A stretch of 64,000 bases of DNA from Malassezia furfur (Eukaryota), in the NCBI GenBank assembly GCA_052055015.1, contig JBQJIT010000017.1, one strand, 5' to 3'. Positions 1,176 through 13,152 of the stretch are shown piece by piece. A program made the translations under genes and the position numbers. Within the stretch, counting starts at the first letter, position 1; the number at the start of each line of letters is the position of its first letter. Below the pieces are notes generated by a model. The model was not told the origin of the DNA. It did no database searches and saw only the letters and a list, made by a program, of their open reading frames with translations.

Positions 1176-4100
1176 CTACGAGGGCTCGAGCGCCTGGAGA
1201 CGAACGAGGTTGGCGTACACACCCTTCTGGGCCATGAGGGTCTGGTGGTTTCCCGACTCGGCGACGACGCCGTTCTGGAAGGCAAAGATGCGGTCCGCGT
1301 GCGAGATGGTGGCGAGACGGTGGGCAATCGAGATGGTCGTACGGCCTCGGGCGGCACGGTCGAGCGCCTGCTGTACAATTTTTTCCGAGTCCGAGTCGAG
1401 TGCCGACGTCGCCTCATCCAAGAGCAGGATTTTGGGGTTGCGGACCAAGGCGCGTGCAATGGCGATGCGTTGTTTCTGCCCACCACTGAGCTGCGTGCCC
1501 TTGGCGCCGACCTGGGTATCAAATCCGTTGGGAAGTCCCTCGATGAATTCGAGGATGTTGGCCTGTACAGCAGCCGCGCGCATCTGCTCATCGGTGACGT
1601 CGTCAGGCGAGTCGAGCGCACCGAGACGCAGGTTAAACGCAATCGTGCCATCGTACAGGGTGGGCTCTTGCGAGACCAGCGCAATATGCTTCCGTAGCGA
1701 ACGGACATTGAGCGTGCGAATGTCGTGGCCATCGAGCGTGATGCGCCCGCCTTCGACGTCGTAAAAACGCTCGATAAGCTGAATTGTGGTGGATTTTCCG
1801 CATCCACTGCTGCCGACGAGCGCGCAGTAGGAGCCAGGCGGAGCATCCATCGTAACGCCGCGCAGCACTTGCACGCCCGGACGCGTAGGGTAGCGGAACA
1901 AGACGTGCTCAAAGCGCAGGTGGCCCTCGCAGTGGTCCAGCACAATGCCATCATCCGTGTTGGCGTCGATTTTCGGCACGTTGTCCAGCAGCTCAAACAC
2001 CGCCGAGGCCGCCGTGCGGGCATTGGAGATGTCGGGGACAAAGTTGAACACATTGCCCGCCTGGATGCTGCCGAACACGACCGCGGTAAAGATGGTAAAG
2101 AACTGTCCTGCGTCGTACTCGCCGCGGAACTGCAGCTGCGAACCGTACCAGAATCCGAGCGAAATGACAAAGAACGAGGTGCTCTGCGACAGGGCATAGA
2201 AAATGTTGCCATAGAGCGCAGCCTTTTTCGCGACCTGCGACGCGCTCTGCAGCGACTCGCTGTATTCGGCGAGGCAGTCATCCTCGCGCGTGAGCGAGGC
2301 CACCGTACGGATCGCGTTGGCCGACTCGCATGCCTTTTGTGAAGAGACGAGATGCGCCTTGCGGACCTTGACGTCCTTCATCACGACGAGCCACAGGCGC
2401 ACAAAGCCGGCGCACAGCGTAAACGGAATACAGGCAATCACGACCAGCGCGAGCTTCCAGCCATAGATCAGCGCAATGATCGCGCCGACAATCAGCGTCG
2501 AGATCGATTGAACGATGGTACCGAGCGACACACCAATGAACCCGTTGATCTTTTGCGTGTTCTCTGCAAGCGCACTCGTCAGTGCACCGCTGCTGTGGTC
2601 CTTTTCGTCGAAGAAGGACACATCCGCACGCAAGTAGGCACGGAACATGCGGCTGCGCAGGCGCTGCATGAGCATTGCCGAGCCCTGCTGGATAAGCGCC
2701 ATCTGGAAGATGGTGGAGAACGTCGAGATGATGGCAATAATGAAGAAGTAAAGCGCCTGCATGTTGGCCGTATGGCGCATATCGCTGCGCTGAGGCTCGG
2801 GACAGTTTTCCCCCAACTCGTTTTGACACTTGCTGAAGTTGGTCAGCGCGAGGCCAAACAGGATCGAGAAGCTAGGATACGTCCCGCCGGACGCCACTGC
2901 ACACACCATGCCTGGCAAAAAGTAGGGAACCAGCAGGTCGCGGCCGATGCGCGCGAGACGCAGCAGCACGTATACAAGGCTCTGGGGTCTGTGCTTGCCC
3001 TCTTCGTCAAGCTTGCCGTGGCGCAGGCCTCCCATCTTCATCACCTGCGACACGGCCGACTCGTCGGGTGGGAGGCTCAGGTGCGACGTCATGACCTGGT
3101 TGCCTTCGCGCTCCTTGTTCGAAGCATCGTCCCAGTCGGTGTCGGGCGGCGACGTGTCGTGCTGCGTGAGCATTGCCTCGGTGTTTTCGCGGTTGATCTG
3201 CTGCGTGGCAACAAGGCCAGCGTACACGCCATGCGGGATTTGCAGCAGATCGTTGTGCTGGCCCTGCTCGACAATTACGCCGTTCTTCATCACGACAATG
3301 TTGTCCGCGTTCTTGATTGTGCTCAGCCGGTGCGCAATGGTGATGGTCGTGCGTCCCCGCGACGCCCGGTCGAGTGCCTCCTGGACGATGCCCTCGGACG
3401 CCGTGTCGAGTGCACTCGTCGCCTCGTCGAGCAGCAAAATGCGCGGGTTTTTGACGATCGCCCGTGCAATCGATACACGCTGCTTCTGGCCGCCACTTAA
3501 GAGCGCCGCACGCTCGCCGACATGCGTCTGGTAACCCTGCGGGAGGTCAAGGATGAAATCGTGTGCATTCGCCTGGCGCGCTGCCTCGACGATCAGCTTG
3601 TCCTTCTCCTCGGGCGAATAGTGCTCGTACGGCGTGTGAACTAGGCCGTAGGCAATGTTCTCCCAAACGGTCGTAGCAAACAGCGTCGGCTCCTGGCCGA
3701 CAAGGCCGATCTGCGTGCGGAGCCACTGGATGTTGAGCTGCGGCAGCGGCAGGCCGTCAAGCAGTACCTCGCCGGCAGTCGGATCGTAAAAGCGCTCCAC
3801 AAGCGACACAATAGTGCTTTTGCCTGAACCTGATGGGCCGACGAGCGCAGTCGTGCGGCCCGCGGGGATGTCCAGCGAAAATTCTTTCAGGATCGGCACG
3901 TTGGGGCGCGAAGGGTACACAAAACTGACGTGGCGCACCGACAGGTTGCCGATGCAGTGCGGCGGACGCAGTCCGTCCGGGCTTGACGAGTCGATCGCGG
4001 GCTGGCGGTCGATCGTCTCGTACACCTTGCCGGCGGCCGCCTGCGCAAAGCTGAGGGCTTGCAAGTTCGGCGCAAGCATCGCCATGCCAAACGCGCCGAT

Positions 4101-5903
4101 CAGCACCGAGAAAATGACATTCATCACCACACCACTTTGGATGTTGCCATCCGCCACGAGCTTCGAGCCGAAGAAGAACGCGAGTGCATACGCCGAGTAC
4201 ACACAGAAGAAGAAGAAGCCCACACCGATGCCCGTCGCAATGGCGCGCCGCCGGCTCGCCGTCATTGCGAGCACATTGCGCGCATCGTACATGTTGCTAA
4301 GGTGCGGCGTCATGTCAAAGGCCTTGGCCGTACGCACAGTCGAGAGCGTCTCTTCGGCGAGCGAGGCCGCCTGCGCGACGTACCCTAGTTCAATTTGCTG
4401 GTACTTGGCGACAAAGATGTTCATCACCACGGCAGTTACCACAATGCACGGAATGATGGCGGTCATGACGAGCGCCAGGCGCCAGTTGCGGATGTACGCG
4501 ACGATGAAACCGGCAATGAACGTCGAGAGTAGCGCGACCATCAACGGAATCTTGTCGCTGATTCCGTCCTGGATGAGCTGAATGTCGCTCTGGATGCGCG
4601 TCGTGATTTCGCCTGCGCCCAGGTTGTCAAAGTAAGCAATGTCCTGCCGCAGGACCGCCTTGAGGTAATTTTGCCGGATGCGTAGCGTAATAACCTCGCC
4701 CGTGTACACCCAGATTGCCATGTAGATGTAGATTACCACCCACGAGCAAATACCGATAATGGTCAGGTACAATGCGTCCATGTTGACATTGTGCCGCACG
4801 CGGTTGACGCGGTCCATAAACTCTTCGAGGGTTGTGTGACTGTTTATGCCCAGGAACGCGGTGGTCAGGTTGCCGAACAGCACGGTCATGAGCGGCTGTG
4901 CGATGCCCGAAATTGCTGCGCATACGATGCCGAGCAAATTGAGGAGGCGTTCGTTGGGCGTCGCATAGCGGAACAAGTCGCCCACTTTGACCGGTTTGGG
5001 CTTGCCCACCTCGGCGGGTGCCTTACCCTTTTTGCCCTTGGCCGGCTTGTCCGACGCACCGGCACCGGCGTCGGTGCCCATGTCGACGGTGGTGGTGGGC
5101 GGCTGCGGCGGTACGTTGCCACCTGACCACTCTGCCGCATCGTGATCGGATGCACCACCATCGTCGTGGCCCTTGCCCGACGAAAGGTATTGCTTCGAGA
5201 CGGGGAGCAGGTGCGGTCGGTCACCGTACGCGCCCTGCCCTTTTTCTCCACCAAACGGCGCAAGCAGGTGTGAGGTACTGTACGTTTCGTTCGGGGCGAA
5301 CCCGGAGGACTGCAGCGGGTGACCCACGCTTGGCGAGAGGTGCACCGACTGCGATGGGCTGAATCCAATCTCGGACTCGGTGCGCATGAATCCGGTGCGC
5401 GATTGCATATGCAAGTCACGCTCGTTTTCATCCCAGTAAGTCTCTGCGAACGCCGGGGTATCTGGGCCATAGGATGCGAAGCGGCCCTCGCTCGGCAGGA
5501 TGGGTGTGTCGAGATACGGGTCATACATGGGGCTCTGCTCAAGAGCCCGCAGGGGCTGCGGCCTGTCCTTGGCGAAGACAGGAGAGTCGCCCAACTGCGA
5601 ACTGCTGGGCGTCTGTGCGACCTTGGGCGGCACAAACACGCGGTCACCGCGTGCGGAGTCTGCGTCAGCAGGCGACGACAATTGCGTCCATGCCGCGCTA
5701 GGCGGATGCGGTGCATTGTCCTGAGGTGGTGGCGTGTGCGTTCCCCATGTGCCGTCGTCCGCCGAGGGCGACCACATCGGCGAAGACAAGAGATGTGTGC
5801 GCGAAGCCTGCGGTGGGGGCGTCCACGTCCGATCGGGCTCACCGCCAGGGCGAGCGCCTAACCGGATCTGCAGGTCCTTGGGTCTGTCCAATGGATGCGA
5901 CAT
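1176..5903 (-). CDS. Full-length ABCB (MDR/P-glycoprotein) transporter with a long disordered N-terminus
   Basis: TMD-NBD-TMD-NBD; Walker A GPSGSGKS and GSSGCGKS, two LSGGQKQR signatures, two LLLDEATSALD motifs. Confidence 0.95.
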   Translation of the reverse strand: MSHPLDRPKDLQIRLGARPGGEPDRTWTPPPQASRTHLLSSPMWSPSADDGTWGTHTPPPQDNAPHPPSAAWTQLSSPADADSARGDRVFVPPKVAQTPSSSQLGDSPVFAKDRPQPLRALEQSPMYDPYLDTPILPSEGRFASYGPDTPAFAETYWDENERDLHMQSRTGFMRTESEIGFSPSQSVHLSPSVGHPLQSSGFAPNETYSTSHLLAPFGGEKGQGAYGDRPHLLPVSKQYLSSGKGHDDGGASDHDAAEWSGGNVPPQPPTTTVDMGTDAGAGASDKPAKGKKGKAPAEVGKPKPVKVGDLFRYATPNERLLNLLGIVCAAISGIAQPLMTVLFGNLTTAFLGINSHTTLEEFMDRVNRVRHNVNMDALYLTIIGICSWVVIYIYMAIWVYTGEVITLRIRQNYLKAVLRQDIAYFDNLGAGEITTRIQSDIQLIQDGISDKIPLMVALLSTFIAGFIVAYIRNWRLALVMTAIIPCIVVTAVVMNIFVAKYQQIELGYVAQAASLAEETLSTVRTAKAFDMTPHLSNMYDARNVLAMTASRRRAIATGIGVGFFFFCVYSAYALAFFFGSKLVADGNIQSGVVMNVIFSVLIGAFGMAMLAPNLQALSFAQAAAGKVYETIDRQPAIDSSSPDGLRPPHCIGNLSVRHVSFVYPSRPNVPILKEFSLDIPAGRTTALVGPSGSGKSTIVSLVERFYDPTAGEVLLDGLPLPQLNIQWLRTQIGLVGQEPTLFATTVWENIAYGLVHTPYEHYSPEEKDKLIVEAARQANAHDFILDLPQGYQTHVGERAALLSGGQKQRVSIARAIVKNPRILLLDEATSALDTASEGIVQEALDRASRGRTTITIAHRLSTIKNADNIVVMKNGVIVEQGQHNDLLQIPHGVYAGLVATQQINRENTEAMLTQHDTSPPDTDWDDASNKEREGNQVMTSHLSLPPDESAVSQVMKMGGLRHGKLDEEGKHRPQSLVYVLLRLARIGRDLLVPYFLPGMVCAVASGGTYPSFSILFGLALTNFSKCQNELGENCPEPQRSDMRHTANMQALYFFIIAIISTFSTIFQMALIQQGSAMLMQRLRSRMFRAYLRADVSFFDEKDHSSGALTSALAENTQKINGFIGVSLGTIVQSISTLIVGAIIALIYGWKLALVVIACIPFTLCAGFVRLWLVVMKDVKVRKAHLVSSQKACESANAIRTVASLTREDDCLAEYSESLQSASQVAKKAALYGNIFYALSQSTSFFVISLGFWYGSQLQFRGEYDAGQFFTIFTAVVFGSIQAGNVFNFVPDISNARTAASAVFELLDNVPKIDANTDDGIVLDHCEGHLRFEHVLFRYPTRPGVQVLRGVTMDAPPGSYCALVGSSGCGKSTTIQLIERFYDVEGGRITLDGHDIRTLNVRSLRKHIALVSQEPTLYDGTIAFNLRLGALDSPDDVTDEQMRAAAVQANILEFIEGLPNGFDTQVGAKGTQLSGGQKQRIAIARALVRNPKILLLDEATSALDSDSEKIVQQALDRAARGRTTISIAHRLATISHADRIFAFQNGVVAESGNHQTLMAQKGVYANLVRLQALEPS

Positions 5904-6070: not shown

Positions 6071-8650
6071 TCAGGGGCGGCGCGCTGCAGGCGGCGCGAG
6101 CCCGACAGGTAGACAATTTTCATTGGACCAATCCCCGATGAATTCGGCTGGATGCGCCAATTGCCGACGCGCCTCTGACAAGGTGTGTACGTTGAGTAAA
6201 ACGGGCGCATCCAGTGCGCCGCCGACGGGGCGCTGCAGAGGCGCGTCCTCCCAGGGCGCACGACTCAAAATCCGTAGGTCGGCCGGGACCACCGTGGGGA
6301 AGACGAGGACGTGGACCGCCGGGCGCATCCACGTGCGTCCTCCGAGCGTGGTCTGCGTGGAGACGGCCAGGCGCTCCGCACGGTCCAGCGCCGCTTGGAT
6401 GCGCGCACGGTCCCCGCGCGCGTCGCGCCCAATTAGGACATAGATCTCGAGGCCCGCGTCGAGCAGCGCGACACGATCGGCACGTAACGCCTCACTCGTA
6501 AATGGCACAGCCTCGGTGTCATCCGCGCTTACGTACAGCCGCGCTGTGCGGAGCTCCGGCGAAAGCGCCGCAAAATGACGCCAGTGCCAGCCGGACGCGT
6601 GCGTATCTGGGAACCGGCGGCGCCATGCGGGGGTTGCGTGTGCCTCGTCCATCTCAACGACCTTACGCTGCTTCATTTGCGCAAACTGCATCGCGCGTTT
6701 CCGCTGCTCGGCGGTGCTGCCCTTGCCATGCCAGACCCACACCTCGTCCGGCGTATGCAGCACGGCGCTAAACGCCGAACACAGCGAATCGGACGTGACG
6801 GGCATCTCGTCCACAAATAGCCCCGCCTCAGTGCTGCGGAACACGAGCAGCTCCGTGGACTCCCGCGCCGCGCCGCGTGCGCCCCTTCGTGTGACCAGCG
6901 GCCCCTGCAGCAGCGCCGTAAATGCAACAGGCTCTGCGCCCTGGTGCACAGTGCGGCACGTATCGCCGAGCGCCGCCTGCACCGCCCCGGGGATCTCGGC
7001 CGGTGCCTGCGCCCCACGCCACACAAAAGATTGGGGACCCTGCTTGGCGATCAGCAGGTCAGTCGCATACACTTCGGGCGCAAACGTATTGAGCGGCACG
7101 AGGTCACCGGACGGGCCCACGTACGCCAGCTTGGTTTCGGTGCGGGGCGCGGGTCCCGCGGTGCGGCGATCAGTCGCTGCTGAGGCAGCAGGTGAAGCAG
7201 AAGCAACAGGTGCAGCAGGTGCAGCTGCCGTAGCGGGCGAGGCCCCGGCGGCCTTGGCGTCCGATGGCTCCTTCCGTGCATCGGCCAGTACTTTTTGAAT
7301 CGCCTGCACAATCAAGCGGTGTTCGACGGCGTGCATGCGTGTCTCGAGCGCATCGAGCGGCTCGCCGTGGTGAATCGGCACCTGCTCGACCAAAATCGGC
7401 GCACCGCGGTCGACCTCGGCGACGACTTCATGCACCATGATCCCGGTGTGCTCGATGTCGCCCTTTTGGAAGGCCTCGTAAGCGCGCTCGATCGCATTCG
7501 CGCCGTCAAACGCGCCGGGCAGCGCCGGGTGCAGGTTGATGATCGACACGGGCTGCGCTGGGCGTTTGGCAAATGTGGGCGGCGATGCGAGAGACGTCTT
7601 GTGACCCAGCGCACTCAGGAACGTCTCCGAGACGATGTGCATGAAACCAGCGAGGACGATCAGGTCCGGAAGCGCACCGTCGCCCAGCACGTAGTCGGCC
7701 AGCACGAGGTCGTAGTCCTCGCGCGTCTTGCCCGGATTGCGGTTCTGGAAGGTCTTCAGCGAGTGCACCTTGGTGGGGATCGGTGGGTCGACGTTCTTGG
7801 CGCGTTGGAGTCCGTAGGCGTTCATCCGGTTGGAGATGACCCGCACGATCTGCGCATCTTGCAAGGTGGGCGATGCCCCGCACGTCGCGTCGATGATGGC
7901 CTGCAGGTTGCTGCCCGACCCGGAGATAAGAACGACAATGCGTTTGCCCGCCGTGCTTCGCTTGGCCAGCGGCGCGGTAGGACCGGACGCAGTGAGGCTC
8001 GGAGTTGGTCCCTTGGCAGGCACCGCATGTGCGTCGCGAGCGGGCGCCGGCGCCGGCACCTCGGTACGCTGGTCTGCATGCGCTTCGCTGGTCGACGTGT
8101 CCGGCTTGTCGTTGGCAACGTCCGGCGCGTCCATAGCAGGCGTATGGGGCGCGTCGCTGGGCGCGTCGGGTGTCGCTGGCGTAGCGGTCTCATCGCCCTC
8201 CTTGTCGGCTGTGGCGGGGACCACGGTCGGGTTGTCATCCTTGGGCGCCTCGGTGTCCTTGGGCGCTTCGGTTGCGCCCGCATCGCTCTGGTCCGCGGTG
8301 GCTTGTGCCTCCTTGGCGGCCGCCTCGTCCGGGAACAGCTCGCGGTGCCGCATCTCCATCATTTTGGCCATCGAACCATCGGGCTTGGCGATACCAGGCA
8401 GTCCGCGGTACGTCGGCTCGTCCGCAAGCGCGGCCTCCGGCACCGATGTCCGCCCGTCACCCGCGAGCTGGCCCAGGCGAGGCGCCTTGGCCTTGCCGCC
8501 GATGAACGAGGCGAGCGACACGGGCTGCCCATCGGGGCCCGCTTCTGCATGCCCGGTGGGGCCTTGTGTGCCGCCATAGCGCGACAAGAGCGCATCTGCG
8601 CGCGCGCGTGCCGAGCCTGGCGTGTCTTCGTCGTGTGGTGCGCCGCCCAT
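6071..8650 (-). CDS. ADE8: Fusion: gelsolin/villin-like protein with an internal phosphoribosylglycinamide formyltransferase (GART) domain at about 7283-7945
   Basis: Single uninterrupted ORF. RIVVLISGSGSNLQAIID, LIVLAGFMHI, NLHPALPGAFDG and TGIMVHEVVAEVDRG are GART motifs. The C-terminal VWRG..QGAEP, DEMPVTSDSLCSAFS..VWVWHGKGST and VALLDAGLEIYVLIG segments resemble gelsolin repeats. ATG 8650 chosen because an E-box lies just upstream. Confidence 0.8.
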   Translation of the reverse strand: MGGAPHDEDTPGSARARADALLSRYGGTQGPTGHAEAGPDGQPVSLASFIGGKAKAPRLGQLAGDGRTSVPEAALADEPTYRGLPGIAKPDGSMAKMMEMRHRELFPDEAAAKEAQATADQSDAGATEAPKDTEAPKDDNPTVVPATADKEGDETATPATPDAPSDAPHTPAMDAPDVANDKPDTSTSEAHADQRTEVPAPAPARDAHAVPAKGPTPSLTASGPTAPLAKRSTAGKRIVVLISGSGSNLQAIIDATCGASPTLQDAQIVRVISNRMNAYGLQRAKNVDPPIPTKVHSLKTFQNRNPGKTREDYDLVLADYVLGDGALPDLIVLAGFMHIVSETFLSALGHKTSLASPPTFAKRPAQPVSIINLHPALPGAFDGANAIERAYEAFQKGDIEHTGIMVHEVVAEVDRGAPILVEQVPIHHGEPLDALETRMHAVEHRLIVQAIQKVLADARKEPSDAKAAGASPATAAAPAAPVASASPAASAATDRRTAGPAPRTETKLAYVGPSGDLVPLNTFAPEVYATDLLIAKQGPQSFVWRGAQAPAEIPGAVQAALGDTCRTVHQGAEPVAFTALLQGPLVTRRGARGAARESTELLVFRSTEAGLFVDEMPVTSDSLCSAFSAVLHTPDEVWVWHGKGSTAEQRKRAMQFAQMKQRKVVEMDEAHATPAWRRRFPDTHASGWHWRHFAALSPELRTARLYVSADDTEAVPFTSEALRADRVALLDAGLEIYVLIGRDARGDRARIQAALDRAERLAVSTQTTLGGRTWMRPAVHVLVFPTVVPADLRILSRAPWEDAPLQRPVGGALDAPVLLNVHTLSEARRQLAHPAEFIGDWSNENCLPVGLAPPAARRP

Positions 8651-8741
8651 CGTTGCGGGTCCACAAGCCCAGACCCACGTGGCACACATACACAAAATCC
8701 GGTCGTTACAAAAATGCTAAGTAGTGCTAAAGATGCCTCGT

Positions 8742-11096
8742 CTACCGCGTCGCCACGTCGATGGCGTGCTGGACGTCGGTCGTGAGGCGCTCACCGCGCG
8801 CACTGGCCGCGGTGAACCAGTCAAAGGCAAGCTGCGCCACCTTCTCCTGCTGCTCGGCACGCTCGACGTCCGAGCGGCGCTGGCTGATCGCCACGCGGAA
8901 CTTCTCTTGGAGGTCCCAGCTGGCGAGGCGCAGCACCTTGCGCGTCTCGCGCGTGACACGCGAGGCGTGCAGAGTCGCAAACGCGTCGGTCGAGTTGCGC
9001 AGCAGCGCCGAGCTGTTGCCCGTCGCGTGGACGCCACGGCCCGACTTGAGCTCGCGCTTGAGGCTGCGTCCGACGTTGCGCGGCACGGCGTTGGGCAGGT
9101 CCATCACGACCCACGTCAGTGCGCCGACGCCGAGGAGCAGCAGCACAGGCGCAGCCCACCGGCGTGCTGTGCGGCTGCCGAGGATGTCGGTCACGCGCAC
9201 AAACGCATCGACCGCGGTCTTCAGACCGAGCGAGCGCGTACCGACCAGCGTCATGGCGCCCAGACCGATCGACATAGACGACACGAGGCTCGTCTCCTTG
9301 TCCGACTTGCTCTCCTGCGTAAGGAAGGTGAGGTGGTGCTCCACGTCGAACAAATCCGAAATGCGCACTGCCACCAGGTCCACGCGCACGCCCAGACCCG
9401 CGAGGTGCGTCGTGGGCCGCTTGGCAAACATGGCCTCGGGCACAAACACGCGCTGGGGCACCTCGATGTCGCGCGGGAGGTGCGCGTCGCCGGTCGCGGC
9501 AATGTGGGTCACCGCGTCGGTGGTCTGCTGACGCGCCGACGCTTCGCACTCGCCGACGACCGCCTGCAGACTTGCGAGGAAGGCCGCGCGCACGTCGTGC
9601 GCATACTCCCACAGGCCCAGCACGCCAGGGTACGCGGGAAGCGACACATGCGTGCTTGCCGACTCGCCACGCCCGATCTTCTCGAGCGCCTCGGCGACGC
9701 GCGCCTCGGTCGTCTCGCCGACGTGTGCCACGACGCGGTCCTCTTCGCTCTCGACGGTACGCTGCGCCTTGACGGCATTCGCCTCGCACTCGGCAAGCGC
9801 CGGGCGGCTCTTGGCGAGCTGCTTGCGTGCCGCGTCCATATCCGCCTGCGCTGCTTCGAGGTTGAGCCGCGCAAGGAACAGCACGTCGCCCAGTGCGCGC
9901 TCGAGGAAAGTCTGCGCGGGTAGCAGCTTCGACTTGGCGCGCCGGCGCAGCACAAACTCGCACAGGTTTGCCTCGAGCGACGCAAAGCGCTCCGTGTCGG
10001 GCGACGTAGTACCCGCCGCCTCGCACATGGCGCGCGCATCGACAAAGTGCACGAGCTCCGCGGCCTCCTCGTACGTACGCGGCGACAGCTCGCGAATCTG
10101 CTCCAGGACGCGCGCACGGCACTTCTCCTTGTTCTTGATCTGGTCAAACTTGTTCACCACCACAAACACGTAAGCCTTGTCGTTCCGAGCGTTCTCCAAA
10201 AACTCGCACGCGCTCAGCGTGAAGTGGTTCTCGGCGCTGACAACAAACACCACGACGTCGATCTCCTCCTCGCGAGCAAACAGCGCCGTCGTCTGCACAC
10301 TGTCGCGGTTCAGACCGGGGCCGTCGATCAGCGTAATGTCCATCACGTCGTTGTGCAGCAGGCTCTCTTCGCCGCTGGACACGTCCGCGCAGTAGCACTT
10401 GAGCACGGGCGCCTCGGCGTGTTCCTTGTTCTCCTCCTCCTCAAAGATGGCCTCAATCTCGTCGAGCGCACGGCGCGAGTAGGTGCTAGGGTCGTCGACC
10501 TGATAACGCGCCGCATCATACACGACATGCACCTCCTCGACACCCTTATTCTCGCGCGCAGCATCGTGGATCTCGCAAAAGACCATTGTGCACGGCTGCT
10601 GGTCCACGGGAACCATGGAACGGCGCATCAGCGCATTGATAAACGTCGATTTGCCGGCGTTCAAGTCACCCGTGACCAACACCTTGGACTGCGTGTCGCT
10701 GATACGAACACGCAGGTTTCGCAAGTGCGTCAGCGAACGCACCATACGTTCGTCGAGCAGCTGCCCGACGGAGGACTTCTCCAGGGAGTCGACCAGCGTC
10801 GACGCATTGCCGACAGAACCGAGCTTCAGTTCCAGACGCAGCACAGACAACGGCGAGTCCTGCGACGCACTCGTGGGGTACCGCAGCACCCACTGCGCCC
10901 GGTTAAACTCGCGCAGCTCACGCAGCAAAGCGTCGGTCGCATCGAGCGAAGTCAGCAGATTGTCGCGACTCCGCAAAAAGGCTTCTTGGCTCATTTCGGG
11001 CACCGTGGCGGACGACTCAGTGGGGGGTGCCTGCACACCCTCCTCACGAGCCTCCTCAACCACCGGCGCCACGTCCTTGGGCTTGGCCGCAAGCAT
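8742..11096 (-). CDS. FZO1: Mitofusin, mitochondrial fusion GTPase
   Basis: KVLVTGDLNAGKSTFINALM, PVDQQPCT, LIDGPGLNRDS, FVVSAENHFTLS, VVNKFD; two hydrophobic segments near the C-terminus. Confidence 0.93.
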   Translation of the reverse strand: MLAAKPKDVAPVVEEAREEGVQAPPTESSATVPEMSQEAFLRSRDNLLTSLDATDALLRELREFNRAQWVLRYPTSASQDSPLSVLRLELKLGSVGNASTLVDSLEKSSVGQLLDERMVRSLTHLRNLRVRISDTQSKVLVTGDLNAGKSTFINALMRRSMVPVDQQPCTMVFCEIHDAARENKGVEEVHVVYDAARYQVDDPSTYSRRALDEIEAIFEEEENKEHAEAPVLKCYCADVSSGEESLLHNDVMDITLIDGPGLNRDSVQTTALFAREEEIDVVVFVVSAENHFTLSACEFLENARNDKAYVFVVVNKFDQIKNKEKCRARVLEQIRELSPRTYEEAAELVHFVDARAMCEAAGTTSPDTERFASLEANLCEFVLRRRAKSKLLPAQTFLERALGDVLFLARLNLEAAQADMDAARKQLAKSRPALAECEANAVKAQRTVESEEDRVVAHVGETTEARVAEALEKIGRGESASTHVSLPAYPGVLGLWEYAHDVRAAFLASLQAVVGECEASARQQTTDAVTHIAATGDAHLPRDIEVPQRVFVPEAMFAKRPTTHLAGLGVRVDLVAVRISDLFDVEHHLTFLTQESKSDKETSLVSSMSIGLGAMTLVGTRSLGLKTAVDAFVRVTDILGSRTARRWAAPVLLLLGVGALTWVVMDLPNAVPRNVGRSLKRELKSGRGVHATGNSSALLRNSTDAFATLHASRVTRETRKVLRLASWDLQEKFRVAISQRRSDVERAEQQEKVAQLAFDWFTAASARGERLTTDVQHAIDVATR

Positions 11097-11280: not shown

Positions 11281-13152
11281 ATGACGTCGCTGCTGGGCGC
11301 CCTACGCAATACGGTGTGGCCGCAGCCATTCCGGTTCATTTTGGAGTACAAGGAGGCGCCTTCCACAAGTGGCAGCCCGGTTGCCGAGCTGATTCACGCT
11401 CACTGCCCGCACCTCTCTGGCGCTCAAACCCCGCCCTACCCCACACGCTGGCTCCCGTCCGGTCATTTGCAGACCGTCTACTCGGCCGCGGGTGACTTTT
11501 CCAAGGTGGATCGCGTGGAGTACAAACGCAAGGTGTTTCTCACGCCGGACGGCGGCACGGTTGCGCTCGACATCAGTACGTCACACACCTCTGCACTACT
11601 GACCCAGCGCCGCCCGCGCTCGCCGAGAGCCCACGCCTGGATGCTGAGGATGTACCGACCGTGGTCGTCTTGCATGGCCTTACGGGAGGATCGTACGAGA
11701 GCTAGTACGCTGGCACTGCGCTCACCACAGCGTACGTAACTGCGTCGCACCTTTGGCCAAGGCCAAGCAGGAAGGCGGCTATGGATACCGCTGCGTCGTG
11801 ATCAACGCGCGTGGATGTACGTAACACCACCTTTAACCCAGGTGCAAACACCCCTGTGACCTCGCCGCAGCTCTACTCGGCATCCAAGACGGCCGACGTG
11901 GCCTCGGCGCTGCTCTTGCTCACACGCATGTACCCCAACTCGCCCATGGCCGGCGTGGGATTCTCGCTGGGTGGTGCCATTCTCGCGAAATACGCCGGCG
12001 AGGCCGGTTCAGACACGCCATTGATCGGTGCGGTATGTGTGGGTGCACCGTACAAGCTGGACGAGACTTGCAAATCGCTCGAATCGACCGCCGTGAAGCG
12101 CGTCTACTCGTACGCTATGGGCCAAAACTTGCTCAACGTCATTCGGCGGCACGTCGACACCTTGGCGCTTGACCCATCGCTCGCTGCTCCTTTGGAGGTG
12201 GCATTTGGCGAGCGGATCCGGCCTGGAAGCGATGAGCCGCTTCCGACGCCCAGCAAGGAGGGGCCATCTAAGGGATCGCTGCGGTTCGTCGACCACTATG
12301 TCACCAGCAAGGCGGGGGGGTATCCGGCACCCTATGGCGAGTTCCCGTTTGCTACAGCAGATGACTACTATCGGCACGCGAGCCCCACAAATCGGCTTGG
12401 CAGCATCGCGCGGCCAATGTTGGCACTCAACGCCGATGACGACCCCATCGTGCCGCTTCACGAACTCAAGTCGGTTCGTGCTGAGCTGGATAATAACCCC
12501 AATATTGTGCTCGCCCACTCGCGCTGCGGTGGCCACCTGGGCTGGTTCGCATCGGCATTACCTACACGCTGGTCGCATGTACCGATCAACGAATTCCTCG
12601 CCGCCCTGTTCGAGCGTTTCCGTGAAGCCCAGGAGCCGCGCCCGGCCTCCGGCCTTGGGTCCGGCGGACCGCAGCAGTCACTATGGAAGCAGGACAAGGT
12701 CAAGCACCAGCCCGTGGATGTCGAGCTGCTACCGGTGAGCGCGCTGCTGCCCATCCTCTCGGGCGTGTCGCCGCAGACGCATGCGGATGCCGATGCGCCC
12801 GAGGATGCGACCGGCGAGCCGGTGCATGCATGGCTCCGTACGCATGTGCTTCCTGCTATTCCACTCGTGCATCCCAAAGATTCGCCAGCTCGCAAAACGC
12901 AGGAAAACGCAGCGCCGATAGCCCCTGGCAAGATGCTCCACCTCACACTGGTAGGTGGGCAGCTCACTGACCCCAGTACCAGGACGCCCAACACCCAGAA
13001 ATTGGGTTCATAGAGGTGCCCGACGACGTCCACGTTGGTATGTACTCGCCTTTTGTACTGACTCAGGCGGCAACGGAAGCATCATTCACGGAGAAAAGCT
13101 TACCCAACAGGCGCGAAGGGGGATGCGCTCGTCCAAAATTGCCGGCCTTTAG
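11281..13152 (+). CDS. Alpha/beta hydrolase, Eht1/Eeb1/ABHD1-3 family (about 5 short introns)
   Basis: Spliced reading gives WLPSGHLQTVY, TPDGGTVALD, LHGLTGGSYESYVR, NARGCANTP, GFSLGG nucleophile elbow, LNADDDPIVP, GGHLGWF. Confidence 0.85.

What the first reader, a model, noticed from the sequence alone, without database searches (positions are those of the whole stretch)
6071..8650. Purine-biosynthesis enzyme Ade8 (GART) inserted in-frame inside a gelsolin/villin-like protein
Seen: one stop-free ORF, with no intron signal I could find, comprising an N-terminal SLASFIGGKAKAPRL motif, an acidic Pro-rich linker, a complete GART domain with catalytic N-x-H and Asp motifs (about 7283-7945), an Ala/Pro linker, and about 350 aa of gelsolin-like repeats. 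Known: fungal Ade8 is normally a stand-alone protein of about 200-220 aa, and animal GART fuses only to other purine enzymes. From memory, the SLASFIGG motif occurs at the N-terminus of basidiomycete villin-like proteins, which implies domain insertion rather than end-to-end fusion. Inference: the enzyme may be tethered to actin or the bud neck, a genetically encoded purinosome-cytoskeleton link.
Basis: partly seen in the sequence, partly recalled or inferred. Interest (0 to 1): 0.78.

Follow-up and report, generated by a model that had tools for sequence, protein, structure and literature searches.

The report
Ade8 enzyme inside fungal Bsp1 protein
This Malassezia-type gene really does encode a purine-synthesis enzyme embedded in the middle of an actin-regulating, gelsolin-like protein, but the same architecture is shared by most smut-related fungi and was already described in print in 2024.

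Summary
A stop-free minus-strand ORF (6071-8689, probable start Met14 at 8650) encodes three conserved modules. These are a Gly/Pro-rich N-terminal module with the SLASFIGG motif, a full-length GAR transformylase (Ade8) with the Asn-His-Asp catalytic residues, and three gelsolin-like domains resembling gelsolin G4-G6 and villin V4-V6.

The "insertion, not end-to-end fusion" reading is supported. Relatives in Agaricomycetes, Exobasidiales and Pucciniomycotina have the same gelsolin-like C-terminal module without the enzyme. The Agaricomycete and Exobasidiales relatives also carry the N-terminal module.

It is not new. Hummel et al. 2024 (PMC10881157) describe exactly this as "group III Bsp1" of Ustilaginomycotina: Ade8/GART inserted in the centre of the actin regulator Bsp1.

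- A capping-protein-interaction (CPI) motif or its remnant still sits upstream of GART in some lineages such as Microstroma. It is completely gone in all Malassezia-type proteins. So GART was placed beside the motif, not in its place.
- Exobasidiales (Meira, Exobasidium) have the GART-less form.

Function (enzyme tethered to actin structures) remains inference. No transcript data or whole genome could be consulted.

The parts
6071..8650 (-). Probable CDS (Met14 to TGA stop at 6071-6073). The open frame extends upstream to an ATG at 8687-8689.
   Evidence: ORF; start choice: first 13 aa unconserved, homologue offset, ATG context
8321..8626 (-). N-terminal Bsp1-type module (aa 22-123). Consensus: LLxRYGGxxGPTGxA...PVSLAxFxGGKAxxPRLGxLxGDGR...LPG...SxAxFxExR.
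   Evidence: Local HMM hit at aa 22-123; conservation; mostly low-confidence/disordered with short helices in the model
8453..8524 (-).
   Evidence: S58, L59, F62, G64, G65, G73, G77 and G79 are invariant in 44 aligned proteins; the motif was found in the Malassezia-type and some other homologues
7958..8320 (-). Linker 1 (aa 124-244): acidic, Pro/Thr/Ala-rich, not conserved, with no CPI motif.
   Evidence: unconserved, pLDDT below 50; no CPI match, even at E<=10 with filters off
7274..7957 (-). GAR transformylase (Ade8/PurN-type) domain, aa 245-472.
   Evidence: Pfam PF00551 E 9.1e-36; human GART and E. coli PurN structures E 5.5e-24 to 1e-20 over the full length; pLDDT above 90
7529..7537 (-). 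Catalytic Asn385-Leu-His387.
   Evidence: Aligned with the N-x-H of human GART; N-x-H-P...[VIL]-D-x-G is present in 60 of 60 fused GART regions
7409..7411 (-). Catalytic Asp427.
7133..7273 (-). Linker 2 (aa 473-519): Ala/Pro/Ser-rich, not conserved.
6860..7132 (-). Gelsolin-like domain 1 (about aa 520-610). This is the DUF7904 region in relatives.
   Evidence: Model; Foldseek; DUF7904 hits at this position in homologues. Boundaries are approximate.
6545..6859 (-). Gelsolin-like domain 2 (about aa 611-715), with the VWVWHGKGS signature.
   Evidence: aligned with villin repeat motifs. Boundaries are approximate.
6152..6544 (-). Gelsolin-like domain 3 (about aa 716-846). The Pfam Gelsolin hit is at aa 725-775.
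6074..6151 (-). C-terminal tail (aa 847-872), with the partly conserved LPVG motif.

Best explanation
The locus is one intron-less gene of a Malassezia-type yeast (closest named relative M. obtusa). It encodes the Ustilaginomycotina form of the fungal actin regulator Bsp1, called 'group III Bsp1' in Hummel et al. 2024. In this form the cell's GAR transformylase (Ade8, step 3 of de novo purine synthesis) is embedded between the conserved N-terminal Bsp1-type module and a C-terminal half-gelsolin of three domains.

Shown here: the architecture, its conservation, intact catalytic residues, the G4-G6-like fold, and the complete absence of the capping-protein-interaction (CPI) motif in Malassezia-type proteins.

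Inferred: the GART domain is catalytically active and is probably the organism's ADE8. The gelsolin half binds actin (monomer or barbed end), as G4-G6 does. This would place the protein, and so the enzyme, on actin patches or the cytokinetic ring, as reported for yeast Bsp1.

Inferred history: a native basidiomycete ADE8 was inserted just downstream of the CPI motif of an ancestral group I Bsp1. The CPI motif then decayed. In Malassezia the central region shrank to two short disordered linkers.
For: One gene:
- The ORF is uninterrupted.
- Full-length collinear homologues exist in named Malassezia species: M. obtusa 63% identity over 97% of the query, also M. yamatoensis and M. psittaci.
- 43 of the 211 classified proteins are N+GART+C.
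- Linkers vary in length and sequence while the frame is kept.
- GC by codon position has the same pattern in linker 1 as in the domains.
- All 7 GT..CTRAY..YAG intron candidates fall inside conserved, confidently folded sequence. None would isolate GART.

Enzyme:
- Pfam E 9e-36 and full-length alignment with human and E. coli GART, with Asn/His/Asp aligned.
- The catalytic motif is kept in 60 of 60 fused GART regions.
- GART is the best-conserved part of the protein.
- Among the 120 best short (<479 aa) GART relatives listed, none is named Malassezia or Ustilaginales. The three Ustilaginomycotina-like entries look like fragments of fused genes.
- There is no second GART in the 64-kb window.

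Gelsolin half: pLDDT 93.4; Foldseek villin V4-V6 and gelsolin G4-G6 E about 1e-21; sequence E 5e-12.

Insertion:
- 42 N-C proteins have no GART, and 32 of the 42 carry a CPI-like motif between N and C.
- A CPI-like motif or remnant lies upstream of GART in 14 of 43 NGC and 3 of 9 -GC proteins. It is found in 0 of the 22 Malassezia-type rows.

Published description: PMC10881157 section 10.
Against: No transcript, peptide or localisation evidence was available.

An internal promoter or start site that yields a separate GART or gelsolin isoform therefore cannot be excluded. Nor can a second, divergent ADE8 elsewhere in the genome.

Actin binding by the three domains is inferred from fold alone. 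No actin- or calcium-binding residues were checked.

Orthology to S. cerevisiae Bsp1 itself rests on the paper. No S. cerevisiae sequence was compared here. The profile comparison with ascomycete DUF4045-gelsolin proteins returned only the C-terminal module.

The fused GART domains were not recovered as a single clade in the quick GART tree, whose backbone is unresolved.
Confidence: 0.85

Rival explanations
1. Functionally neutral fusion. ADE8 landed in a disordered, tolerant linker of Bsp1 and was fixed. Enzyme and actin regulator each do their normal job, and the tether has no adaptive or regulatory meaning.
For: GART is flanked by non-conserved, disordered linkers of very variable length. 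The full-length model gives no confident inter-domain packing (pTM 0.50). Exobasidiales have the same scaffold without GART, so the two parts are separable.
Against: The fusion is retained across several classes of Ustilaginomycotina: Malassezia, Ustilaginales, Tilletia, Microstroma, Tilletiaria. The frame is preserved despite extensive linker turnover. CPI loss accompanies the fusion in most lineages. This hints at a functional change, but neither observation proves selection for the tether.
Confidence: 0.35
2. Two or three adjacent genes, or isoforms, that only look fused. Separate transcripts from internal promoters, or splicing, would give a stand-alone Ade8 and a separate gelsolin-like protein.
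For: No transcript data could be consulted. High GC content makes long stop-free frames common here; for example, a 451-aa antisense ORF overlaps the gene.
Against: An upstream gene would need a stop codon, and there is none in frame over 2.6 kb. The same continuous frame occurs in 20 Malassezia-type protein clusters from independent assemblies and in many other genera. Intron candidates lie only inside conserved domains.
Confidence: 0.05
3. The GART domain is a pseudo-enzyme used only as a structural or ligand-sensing module. Purine step 3 would be done by another gene.
For: The whole genome could not be searched. Only the best 120 of 7879 short GART relatives were listed.
Against: Catalytic Asn/His/Asp are kept in 60 of 60 fused domains. 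The domain has the highest conservation of the protein. It aligns over its full length with active enzymes. No stand-alone Malassezia or Ustilaginales ADE8 is among the 120 listed.
Confidence: 0.05

Closest known systems
Group III Bsp1 of Ustilaginomycotina (Hummel, Hakala, Toret, Kaksonen, Mol Biol Cell 2024, PMC10881157)
   Same: Same architecture and taxon: a Bsp1-type N-terminus, Ade8/GART inserted centrally, C-terminal ADF/gelsolin domains, and no CPI motif. The window's protein is a member.
   Different: [quoted passage not shown] Here a CPI-like motif or remnant coexists with GART in some lineages, and Exobasidiales carry a GART-less form. I could not see Figure 5A or a species list. 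The supplements held as text have no such terms, so I do not know whether Malassezia was among their examples.
Group I Bsp1 (dikaryan proteins with a CPI motif followed by up to three gelsolin domains; Pfam DUF7904 + Gelsolin, and DUF4045 in ascomycetes)
   Same: Homologous C-terminal three-domain module (hhalign E 3e-56 against ascomycete members; phmmer E down to 1e-26). The basidiomycete members share the N-terminal module.
   Different: They have no GART. Most keep a CARMIL-type CPI motif between the N and C modules (32 of 42). They are 1000-1600 aa against 859-872 aa here.
S. cerevisiae Bsp1 (group II)
   Same: Stated orthologue (paper). It localises to actin patches and the cytokinetic ring, binds F-actin, and binds capping protein through its CPI motif with KD 45 nM (paper sections 6-7).
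   Different: It has no gelsolin domains and no GART, and it ends with a CPI motif. No sequence comparison with it was made here.
Gelsolin G4-G6 / villin V4-V6 / adseverin A4-A6
   Same: Three-domain fold: Foldseek E 1e-21 to 1e-19, TM 0.63-0.68, about 20% identity. The hhWxGxxS signatures are present.
   Different: It is only one half (three domains), with no villin headpiece and no N-terminal G1-G3 half. Actin and calcium binding are untested.
Stand-alone fungal Ade8 and the animal trifunctional GARS-AIRS-GART
   Same: Same catalytic domain and residues. It is 53-58% identical to Agaricomycotina Ade8.
   Different: Here the domain is embedded in a cytoskeletal protein. It is neither free (213-304 aa proteins) nor fused to other purine enzymes.

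Membership tests
Group III Bsp1 (Hummel et al. 2024) | GART/Ade8 domain inserted in the centre of the protein | tested here: met
   PF00551 at aa 245-472, between the N module (aa 22-123) and the C module (aa 521-865)
Group III Bsp1 (Hummel et al. 2024) | C-terminal ADF/gelsolin domains (up to three) | tested here: met
   Three domains in a pLDDT 93.4 model; G4-G6 / V4-V6 matches; Pfam Gelsolin above its cut-off
Group III Bsp1 (Hummel et al. 2024) | CPI motif absent | tested here: met
   No regex or HMM match in the protein or in any frame of the window. The motif consensus used was recalled and adapted, then turned into an HMM from 69 segments found here.
Group III Bsp1 (Hummel et al. 2024) | Occurs in Ustilaginomycotina | tested here: met
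   The closest named relatives are Malassezia species (lineage)
Group III Bsp1 (Hummel et al. 2024) | Orthology of the N-terminal part to S. cerevisiae Bsp1 | not tested
The N module is shared with basidiomycete GART-less, CPI-bearing relatives. hhalign against ascomycete relatives returned only the C module.
GAR transformylase (PurN/Ade8, PF00551, EC 2.1.2.2) | Full-length formyltransferase N-domain | tested here: met
   Pfam E 9.1e-36; aligned to residues 3-186 of human GART 5j9f
GAR transformylase (PurN/Ade8, PF00551, EC 2.1.2.2) | Catalytic Asn-x-His and Asp | tested here: met
   N385, H387 and D427 are aligned and conserved in 60 of 60 fused domains
GAR transformylase (PurN/Ade8, PF00551, EC 2.1.2.2) | Enzymatic activity / ade8 complementation | not testable with these tools
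   Needs a bench assay
Canonical villin/gelsolin | Six gelsolin repeats (plus a villin headpiece for villin) | tested here: not met
   Only three domains, and no VHP hit. Canonical villins found (P0298, P0321) have 5 Gelsolin stretches plus VHP.
Canonical villin/gelsolin | Gelsolin-repeat fold | tested here: met
Canonical villin/gelsolin | Actin binding and Ca2+ regulation | not testable with these tools
   No residues were checked and no assay was possible
CPI-motif capping-protein regulators (CARMIL type) | LxHxTxxRPK-type motif | tested here: not met
   Absent from this protein and from all 22 Malassezia-type rows

The most novel reading that the evidence does not exclude
In Malassezia the cell's only GAR transformylase is built into a CPI-less Bsp1 scaffold. 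Either step 3 of purine synthesis is physically placed at actin patches or the cytokinetic ring, or actin capping by the half-gelsolin is gated by substrate or folate occupancy of the GART domain. This would be a natural metabolic-cytoskeletal coupling that took over the position of capping-protein recruitment. The insertion arose once, next to a still intact CPI motif (a state preserved in Microstroma-type proteins). Exobasidiales either reversed it or never acquired it.
Probability: 0.12. Interest if true: 0.7.

Novelty: already known. Interest (0 to 1): 0.3.

Why it matters
An essential purine-pathway enzyme permanently embedded in an actin-regulatory scaffold is an unusual natural fusion. 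It could make enzyme localisation, or coupling between nucleotide supply and actin dynamics, genetically testable in tractable fungi such as Ustilago maydis or Malassezia.

- Independent confirmation for a Malassezia-type genome.
- A structural assignment of the C-terminus as a G4-G6-like half-gelsolin.
- Two corrections of detail: the CPI motif coexists with GART in some lineages, and Exobasidiales lack the insert. Both bear on how and when the fusion arose.

Tried and rejected
- Whole-genome search for a second ADE8: no genome is held for this window.
- Docking of the N module (aa 20-135) on the gelsolin half (aa 515-872) with complex prediction: after queue refusals the job ran and gave no verdict (score 0.14, mark 0.34, controls not folded). 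This is neither for nor against binding.
- ESM Atlas look-up of the N module: no usable hit.
- Earlier findings of this scan by sequence: nothing.
- Profile comparison of basidiomycete and ascomycete family alignments: only the C module was returned, so N-terminal homology to DUF4045 proteins is not shown.
- Purine-regulon-type TGACTC elements: 11 in the window (fewer than in shuffles), none near the gene; the nearest is at 13059.
- First attempt to tabulate catalytic columns by hmmalign: the columns were mis-mapped and the result discarded. It was replaced by a motif count.
- Species-tree support for 'loss in Exobasidiales': the phylogenomic paper (Kijpornyongpan et al. 2018) is not held. The rDNA-based paper read in passages (PMC7451774) says that inter-order relationships are unresolved.
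- AU test on the C-module tree: it does not reject one clade of all 48 GART-bearing rows (p 0.694). The gene tree therefore cannot tell loss from late gain.
- Rejected: a chance ORF in GC-rich DNA. All three modules are conserved.
- Rejected: horizontal origin of GART. Its closest relatives are Agaricomycotina ADE8 at 53-58% identity.
Full report
OBSERVATION. The finding lies on the minus strand. The ORF listing gives one stop-free frame at 6071..8689 (872 aa; translation). I take Met14 as the probable start for three reasons. Residues 1-13 are not conserved. The nearest homologue's N module is offset by 14 residues. Met14 has A at -3 and G at +4, while the first ATG has T at -3.

Pfam finds Formyl_trans_N (E 9.1e-36, 123.7 bits against a cut-off of 26.1) and Gelsolin (E 2e-7, 31.2 bits against 21, aa 725-775). 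It also gives a sub-threshold DUF7904 hit.

The GART region (aa 245-472, nt 7274-7957) aligns over its whole length with human GART and E. coli PurN structures (best E 5.5e-24). Asn385-x-His387 and Asp427 fall on the catalytic residues.

IS IT ONE GENE? Several results say yes.
- There is no in-frame stop over 2.6 kb.
- A word-index search with the whole protein gave 68 hits among proteins of 479-1526 aa. Full-length collinear proteins occur in named Malassezia species: M. obtusa at 63% identity over 97% of the query, and M. yamatoensis, M. psittaci, M. vespertilionis and M. pachydermatis. Longer ones (950-1500 aa) occur in Ustilago, Sporisorium, Pseudozyma/Moesziomyces, Melanopsichium, Tilletia, Microstroma and others. 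Almost all are annotated phosphoribosylglycinamide formyltransferase.
- A 21-protein alignment shows three conserved blocks (aa ~25-120, 245-465, 520-860) separated by unconserved linkers.
- GC by codon position in linker 1 (0.74/0.63/0.75) follows the same pattern as the N and C modules.
- All 7 GT..CTRAY..YAG intron candidates lie between aa 429 and 561, inside conserved and confidently folded sequence. None would isolate GART.

Transcript evidence could not be obtained. That is the main gap.

THE C-TERMINUS. I aligned aa 515-872 with 53 relatives (A1). AlphaFold2 gave pLDDT 93.4 and pTM 0.91. Foldseek against the PDB gave the following:
- villin bound to actin (9jus, 9jvt), E about 1e-21;
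- gelsolin G4-G6 (1nph, 2fh4, 1p8x, 1h1v), TM 0.65-0.68;
- adseverin C-terminal half (3fg6).

Full-length calcium-free gelsolin scores TM about 0.44. By sequence alone the region hits villin (E 5.1e-12) and the second half of gelsolin (E about 1e-9).

The 'about 350 aa of gelsolin-like repeats' are therefore a three-domain half-gelsolin. There is no headpiece and no second half, so the protein is not a canonical villin.

INSERTION RATHER THAN END-TO-END FUSION. An exhaustive phmmer search with aa 515-872 against 1.84 billion representatives gave 253 hits at E<=0.001, of which 150 were listed.

I built three local HMMs:
- N, from aa 20-125 of my alignment;
- G, from stand-alone Agaricomycotina ADE8;
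- C, from aa 520-865.

With them I classified 211 proteins, namely P0001-P0069 and P0190-P0331, including the window's own sequence twice:

| Class | Count |
|---|---|
| N+G+C | 43 |
| G+C | 9 |
| N+G | 4 |
| G only | 14 |
| C only | 99 |
| N+C without G | 42 |

The N+C proteins are 930-1650 aa long. Named ones come from Hygrophoropsis, Epithele and Exidia. Pfam sees DUF7904 plus Gelsolin in them, and DUF4045 in addition in ascomycete-type relatives.

The SLASFIGG module belongs to the N-terminus of a pre-existing gelsolin-like protein, and GART sits inside that protein.

WHAT THE HOST PROTEIN IS, AND PRIOR DESCRIPTION. A full-text search for 'ADE8' plus 'gelsolin' found Hummel, Hakala, Toret and Kaksonen, Mol Biol Cell 2024 (PMC10881157). 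I read passages around the terms, the abstract and outline, and sections 6, 7 and 17 in full. I also searched its two supplements held as text and found no relevant terms. Figure 5A itself cannot be seen.

Section 10 defines three groups of Bsp1 orthologues:
- Group I: a CPI motif followed by up to three ADF/gelsolin domains, in ascomycetes and basidiomycetes.
- Group II: Saccharomycotina, no gelsolin domains, ending with the CPI motif.
[quoted passage not shown] '

That is this finding, including its speculation.

The paper shows experimentally, for S. cerevisiae Bsp1, localisation to actin patches and the cytokinetic ring, F-actin binding through WH2-like motifs, and capping-protein binding by the CPI peptide (KD 45 nM).

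Further searches found no other description:
- 'Bsp1' plus 'Ustilaginomycotina' returned only this paper.
- A five-term search returned nothing relevant.
- 'DUF7904/DUF4045/PF25480/PF13254' returned nothing relevant.
- 'ade8' plus 'Ustilago' returned 10 papers. The purine review PMC10879430, read in passages, does not mention the fusion.

REFINEMENT 1: THE CPI MOTIF. I used a CARMIL-type pattern, [LIVM]xHx[TS]xxR[PAV][KR]. The consensus is recalled, not taken from a call. Matches by class:

| Class | Proteins with a match |
|---|---|
| N-C | 32 of 42 |
| C-only | 33 of 99 |
| NGC | 2 of 43 |
| -GC | 2 of 9 |
| NG- | 0 of 4 |
| G-only | 0 of 14 |

The four GART-bearing matches are P0023 (Microstroma glucosiphilum) and the unnamed P0045, P0028 and P0044. 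They read like LEHLTKGRAKGPARR and lie about 45-65 aa before GART.

An HMM built from the 69 matching segments then found remnants at E<1e-3 in 14 of 43 NGC, 3 of 9 -GC and 1 of 4 NG- proteins. An example is LTKARAKGPVRK in Ustilaginaceae, with the His lost. The remnants are always upstream of GART. Most are 45-75 aa away, and the distance reaches about 240 aa in Tilletiaria P0210. None was found, even at E<=10 with filters off, in the 22 Malassezia-type rows P0001-P0022 or in any frame of the window.

An alignment around the junction shows the shared RLPGMG..SPF motif, then the CPI(-like) motif, then either RSTxGKR plus GART or an unrelated linker.

So GART was inserted beside the CPI motif, not in its place. 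The motif decayed afterwards and is wholly lost in Malassezia, where the central region shrank to two short disordered linkers.

REFINEMENT 2: NOT ALL USTILAGINOMYCOTINA. A search with the GART-less P0192 gave 49 hits. It found named GART-less orthologues in Meira miltonrushii (P0335, 1070 aa) and Exobasidium rhododendri (P0212, 1084 aa). It also found GART-less ones in Rhodotorula, Rhodosporidiobolus and Mycena.

My HMMs confirm that the Meira and Exobasidium proteins, like the other Exobasidiales-type ones, are N+C with no GART. The three Rhodotorula/Rhodosporidiobolus proteins match only the C module, with a CPI-like motif. Meira is in Exobasidiales and Microstroma in Microstromatales. Both are in class Exobasidiomycetes (PMC11687029 passages).

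In a quick LG+G4 tree of the C module (121 rows), these GART-less proteins group with the non-Malassezia fused proteins at SH-aLRT 86-91. An AU test does not reject all 48 GART-bearing rows forming one clade: p 0.694, and the constrained tree is 17.7 log-likelihood units better than the quick free tree. The gene tree therefore cannot tell secondary loss from divergence before the insertion. The phylogenomic species tree was not available to me, and rDNA trees leave the orders unresolved.

IS GART THE ORGANISM'S ADE8? A search restricted to proteins under 479 aa with the GART region listed the best 120 of 7879 hits. Of these, 117 are stand-alone ADE8 of Agaricomycetes and Tremellomycetes (or unnamed relatives), 53-61% identical. 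None is named Malassezia or Ustilaginales.

The three most similar entries look like pieces of fused genes:
- P0070 holds the N module plus GART and stops at the end of GART.
- P0071 holds a CPI remnant plus GART.
- P0072 (Ceraceosorus guamensis, 'partial', 248 aa) carries the RSTxGKR junction motif seen only in fused proteins.

In the GART tree the Agaricomycotina stand-alone enzymes form one clade (SH-aLRT 100) and the Malassezia fused domains another (98). The backbone is unresolved. The catalytic motif is intact in 60 of 60 fused domains.

This fits a native ADE8 that moved into Bsp1 and remains the working enzyme. A second, divergent copy cannot be excluded without genomes.

THE N MODULE. 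Its consensus is LLxRYGGxxGPTGxA(8)PVSLAxFxGGKAxGPRLGKLxGDGR..PPEA..LPG..SLASFLExR. It is shared by the fused proteins and the Exobasidiales GART-less ones. Only its core is recognisable in Agaricomycetes.

In the full-length model (pLDDT 77.2, pTM 0.50) the module is mostly of low confidence, apart from helices at aa 25-37, 59-64 and 107-133. No confident domain arrangement emerges. Its function is unknown. A docking test against the gelsolin half gave no verdict.

MECHANISM, WITH STATUS. Shown: the architecture, its conservation, the catalytic residues, the G4-G6-like fold and the loss of the CPI motif.

Inferred:
- The GART domain makes formyl-GAR for purine synthesis.
- The half-gelsolin binds actin.
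- The protein, and so the enzyme, sits on actin structures as yeast Bsp1 does.
- Without a CPI motif, the Malassezia protein no longer recruits capping protein in the Bsp1 manner.

Whether the tether matters (local nucleotide supply, metabolic gating of capping) or is a tolerated accident in a disordered linker is open. I put the neutral reading at about one third.

VERDICT. The insertion reading is supported. The functional inference is untested. The novelty is removed by PMC10881157.

Noticed in passing
window 8651-8744: Only 91 nt separate the stop codon (TAG, 8742-8744) of the upstream same-strand gene from Met14 of this gene. The gap is AT-rich: 8690-8741 has GC 0.40 against about 0.65 around it. 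The promoter and 5'UTR must be very short, or must overlap the neighbour's 3' end.
   Followed up: partly
window 8745-11096 (-): A 784-aa ORF with Dynamin_N (E 6.7e-19) and other GTPase hits. It is a dynamin-family large GTPase and was not characterised further.
   Followed up: no
window 1179-5903 (-): A 1575-aa full-size ABC transporter with two ABC_membrane and two ABC_tran stretches. It has a Pro/Ser-rich N-terminal extension of about 300 aa before the first membrane domain.
   Followed up: no
window 7430-8785 (+): A 451-aa antisense ORF and several other long ORFs overlap the gene. They are most likely chance frames in GC-rich DNA.
   Followed up: no
P0293, P0346 (proteins): Two Ustilaginomycotina-type family members carry plant names: Adiantum nelumboides (a GART-less form with a CPI-like motif) and Cichorium endivia (N+GART+C). 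They are probably fungal contigs in plant assemblies.
   Followed up: no
P0055-P0059: In Agaricomycete entries the ADE8 domain at the N-terminus is joined to protein kinase, PP2C or transporter domains. These look like merged neighbouring gene models and not real fusions.
   Followed up: no
P0192, P0193, P0195, P0212, P0335, P0338: Six GART-less proteins in the alignment (two named: Exobasidium P0212, Meira P0335; four unnamed) share a conserved motif (A/E)(D/E)(S/G)(T/V)(A/G)ALEAL(L/V)(E/A)G between the CPI-like motif and the first gelsolin domain. No counterpart is recognisable in the GART-bearing proteins.
   Followed up: no
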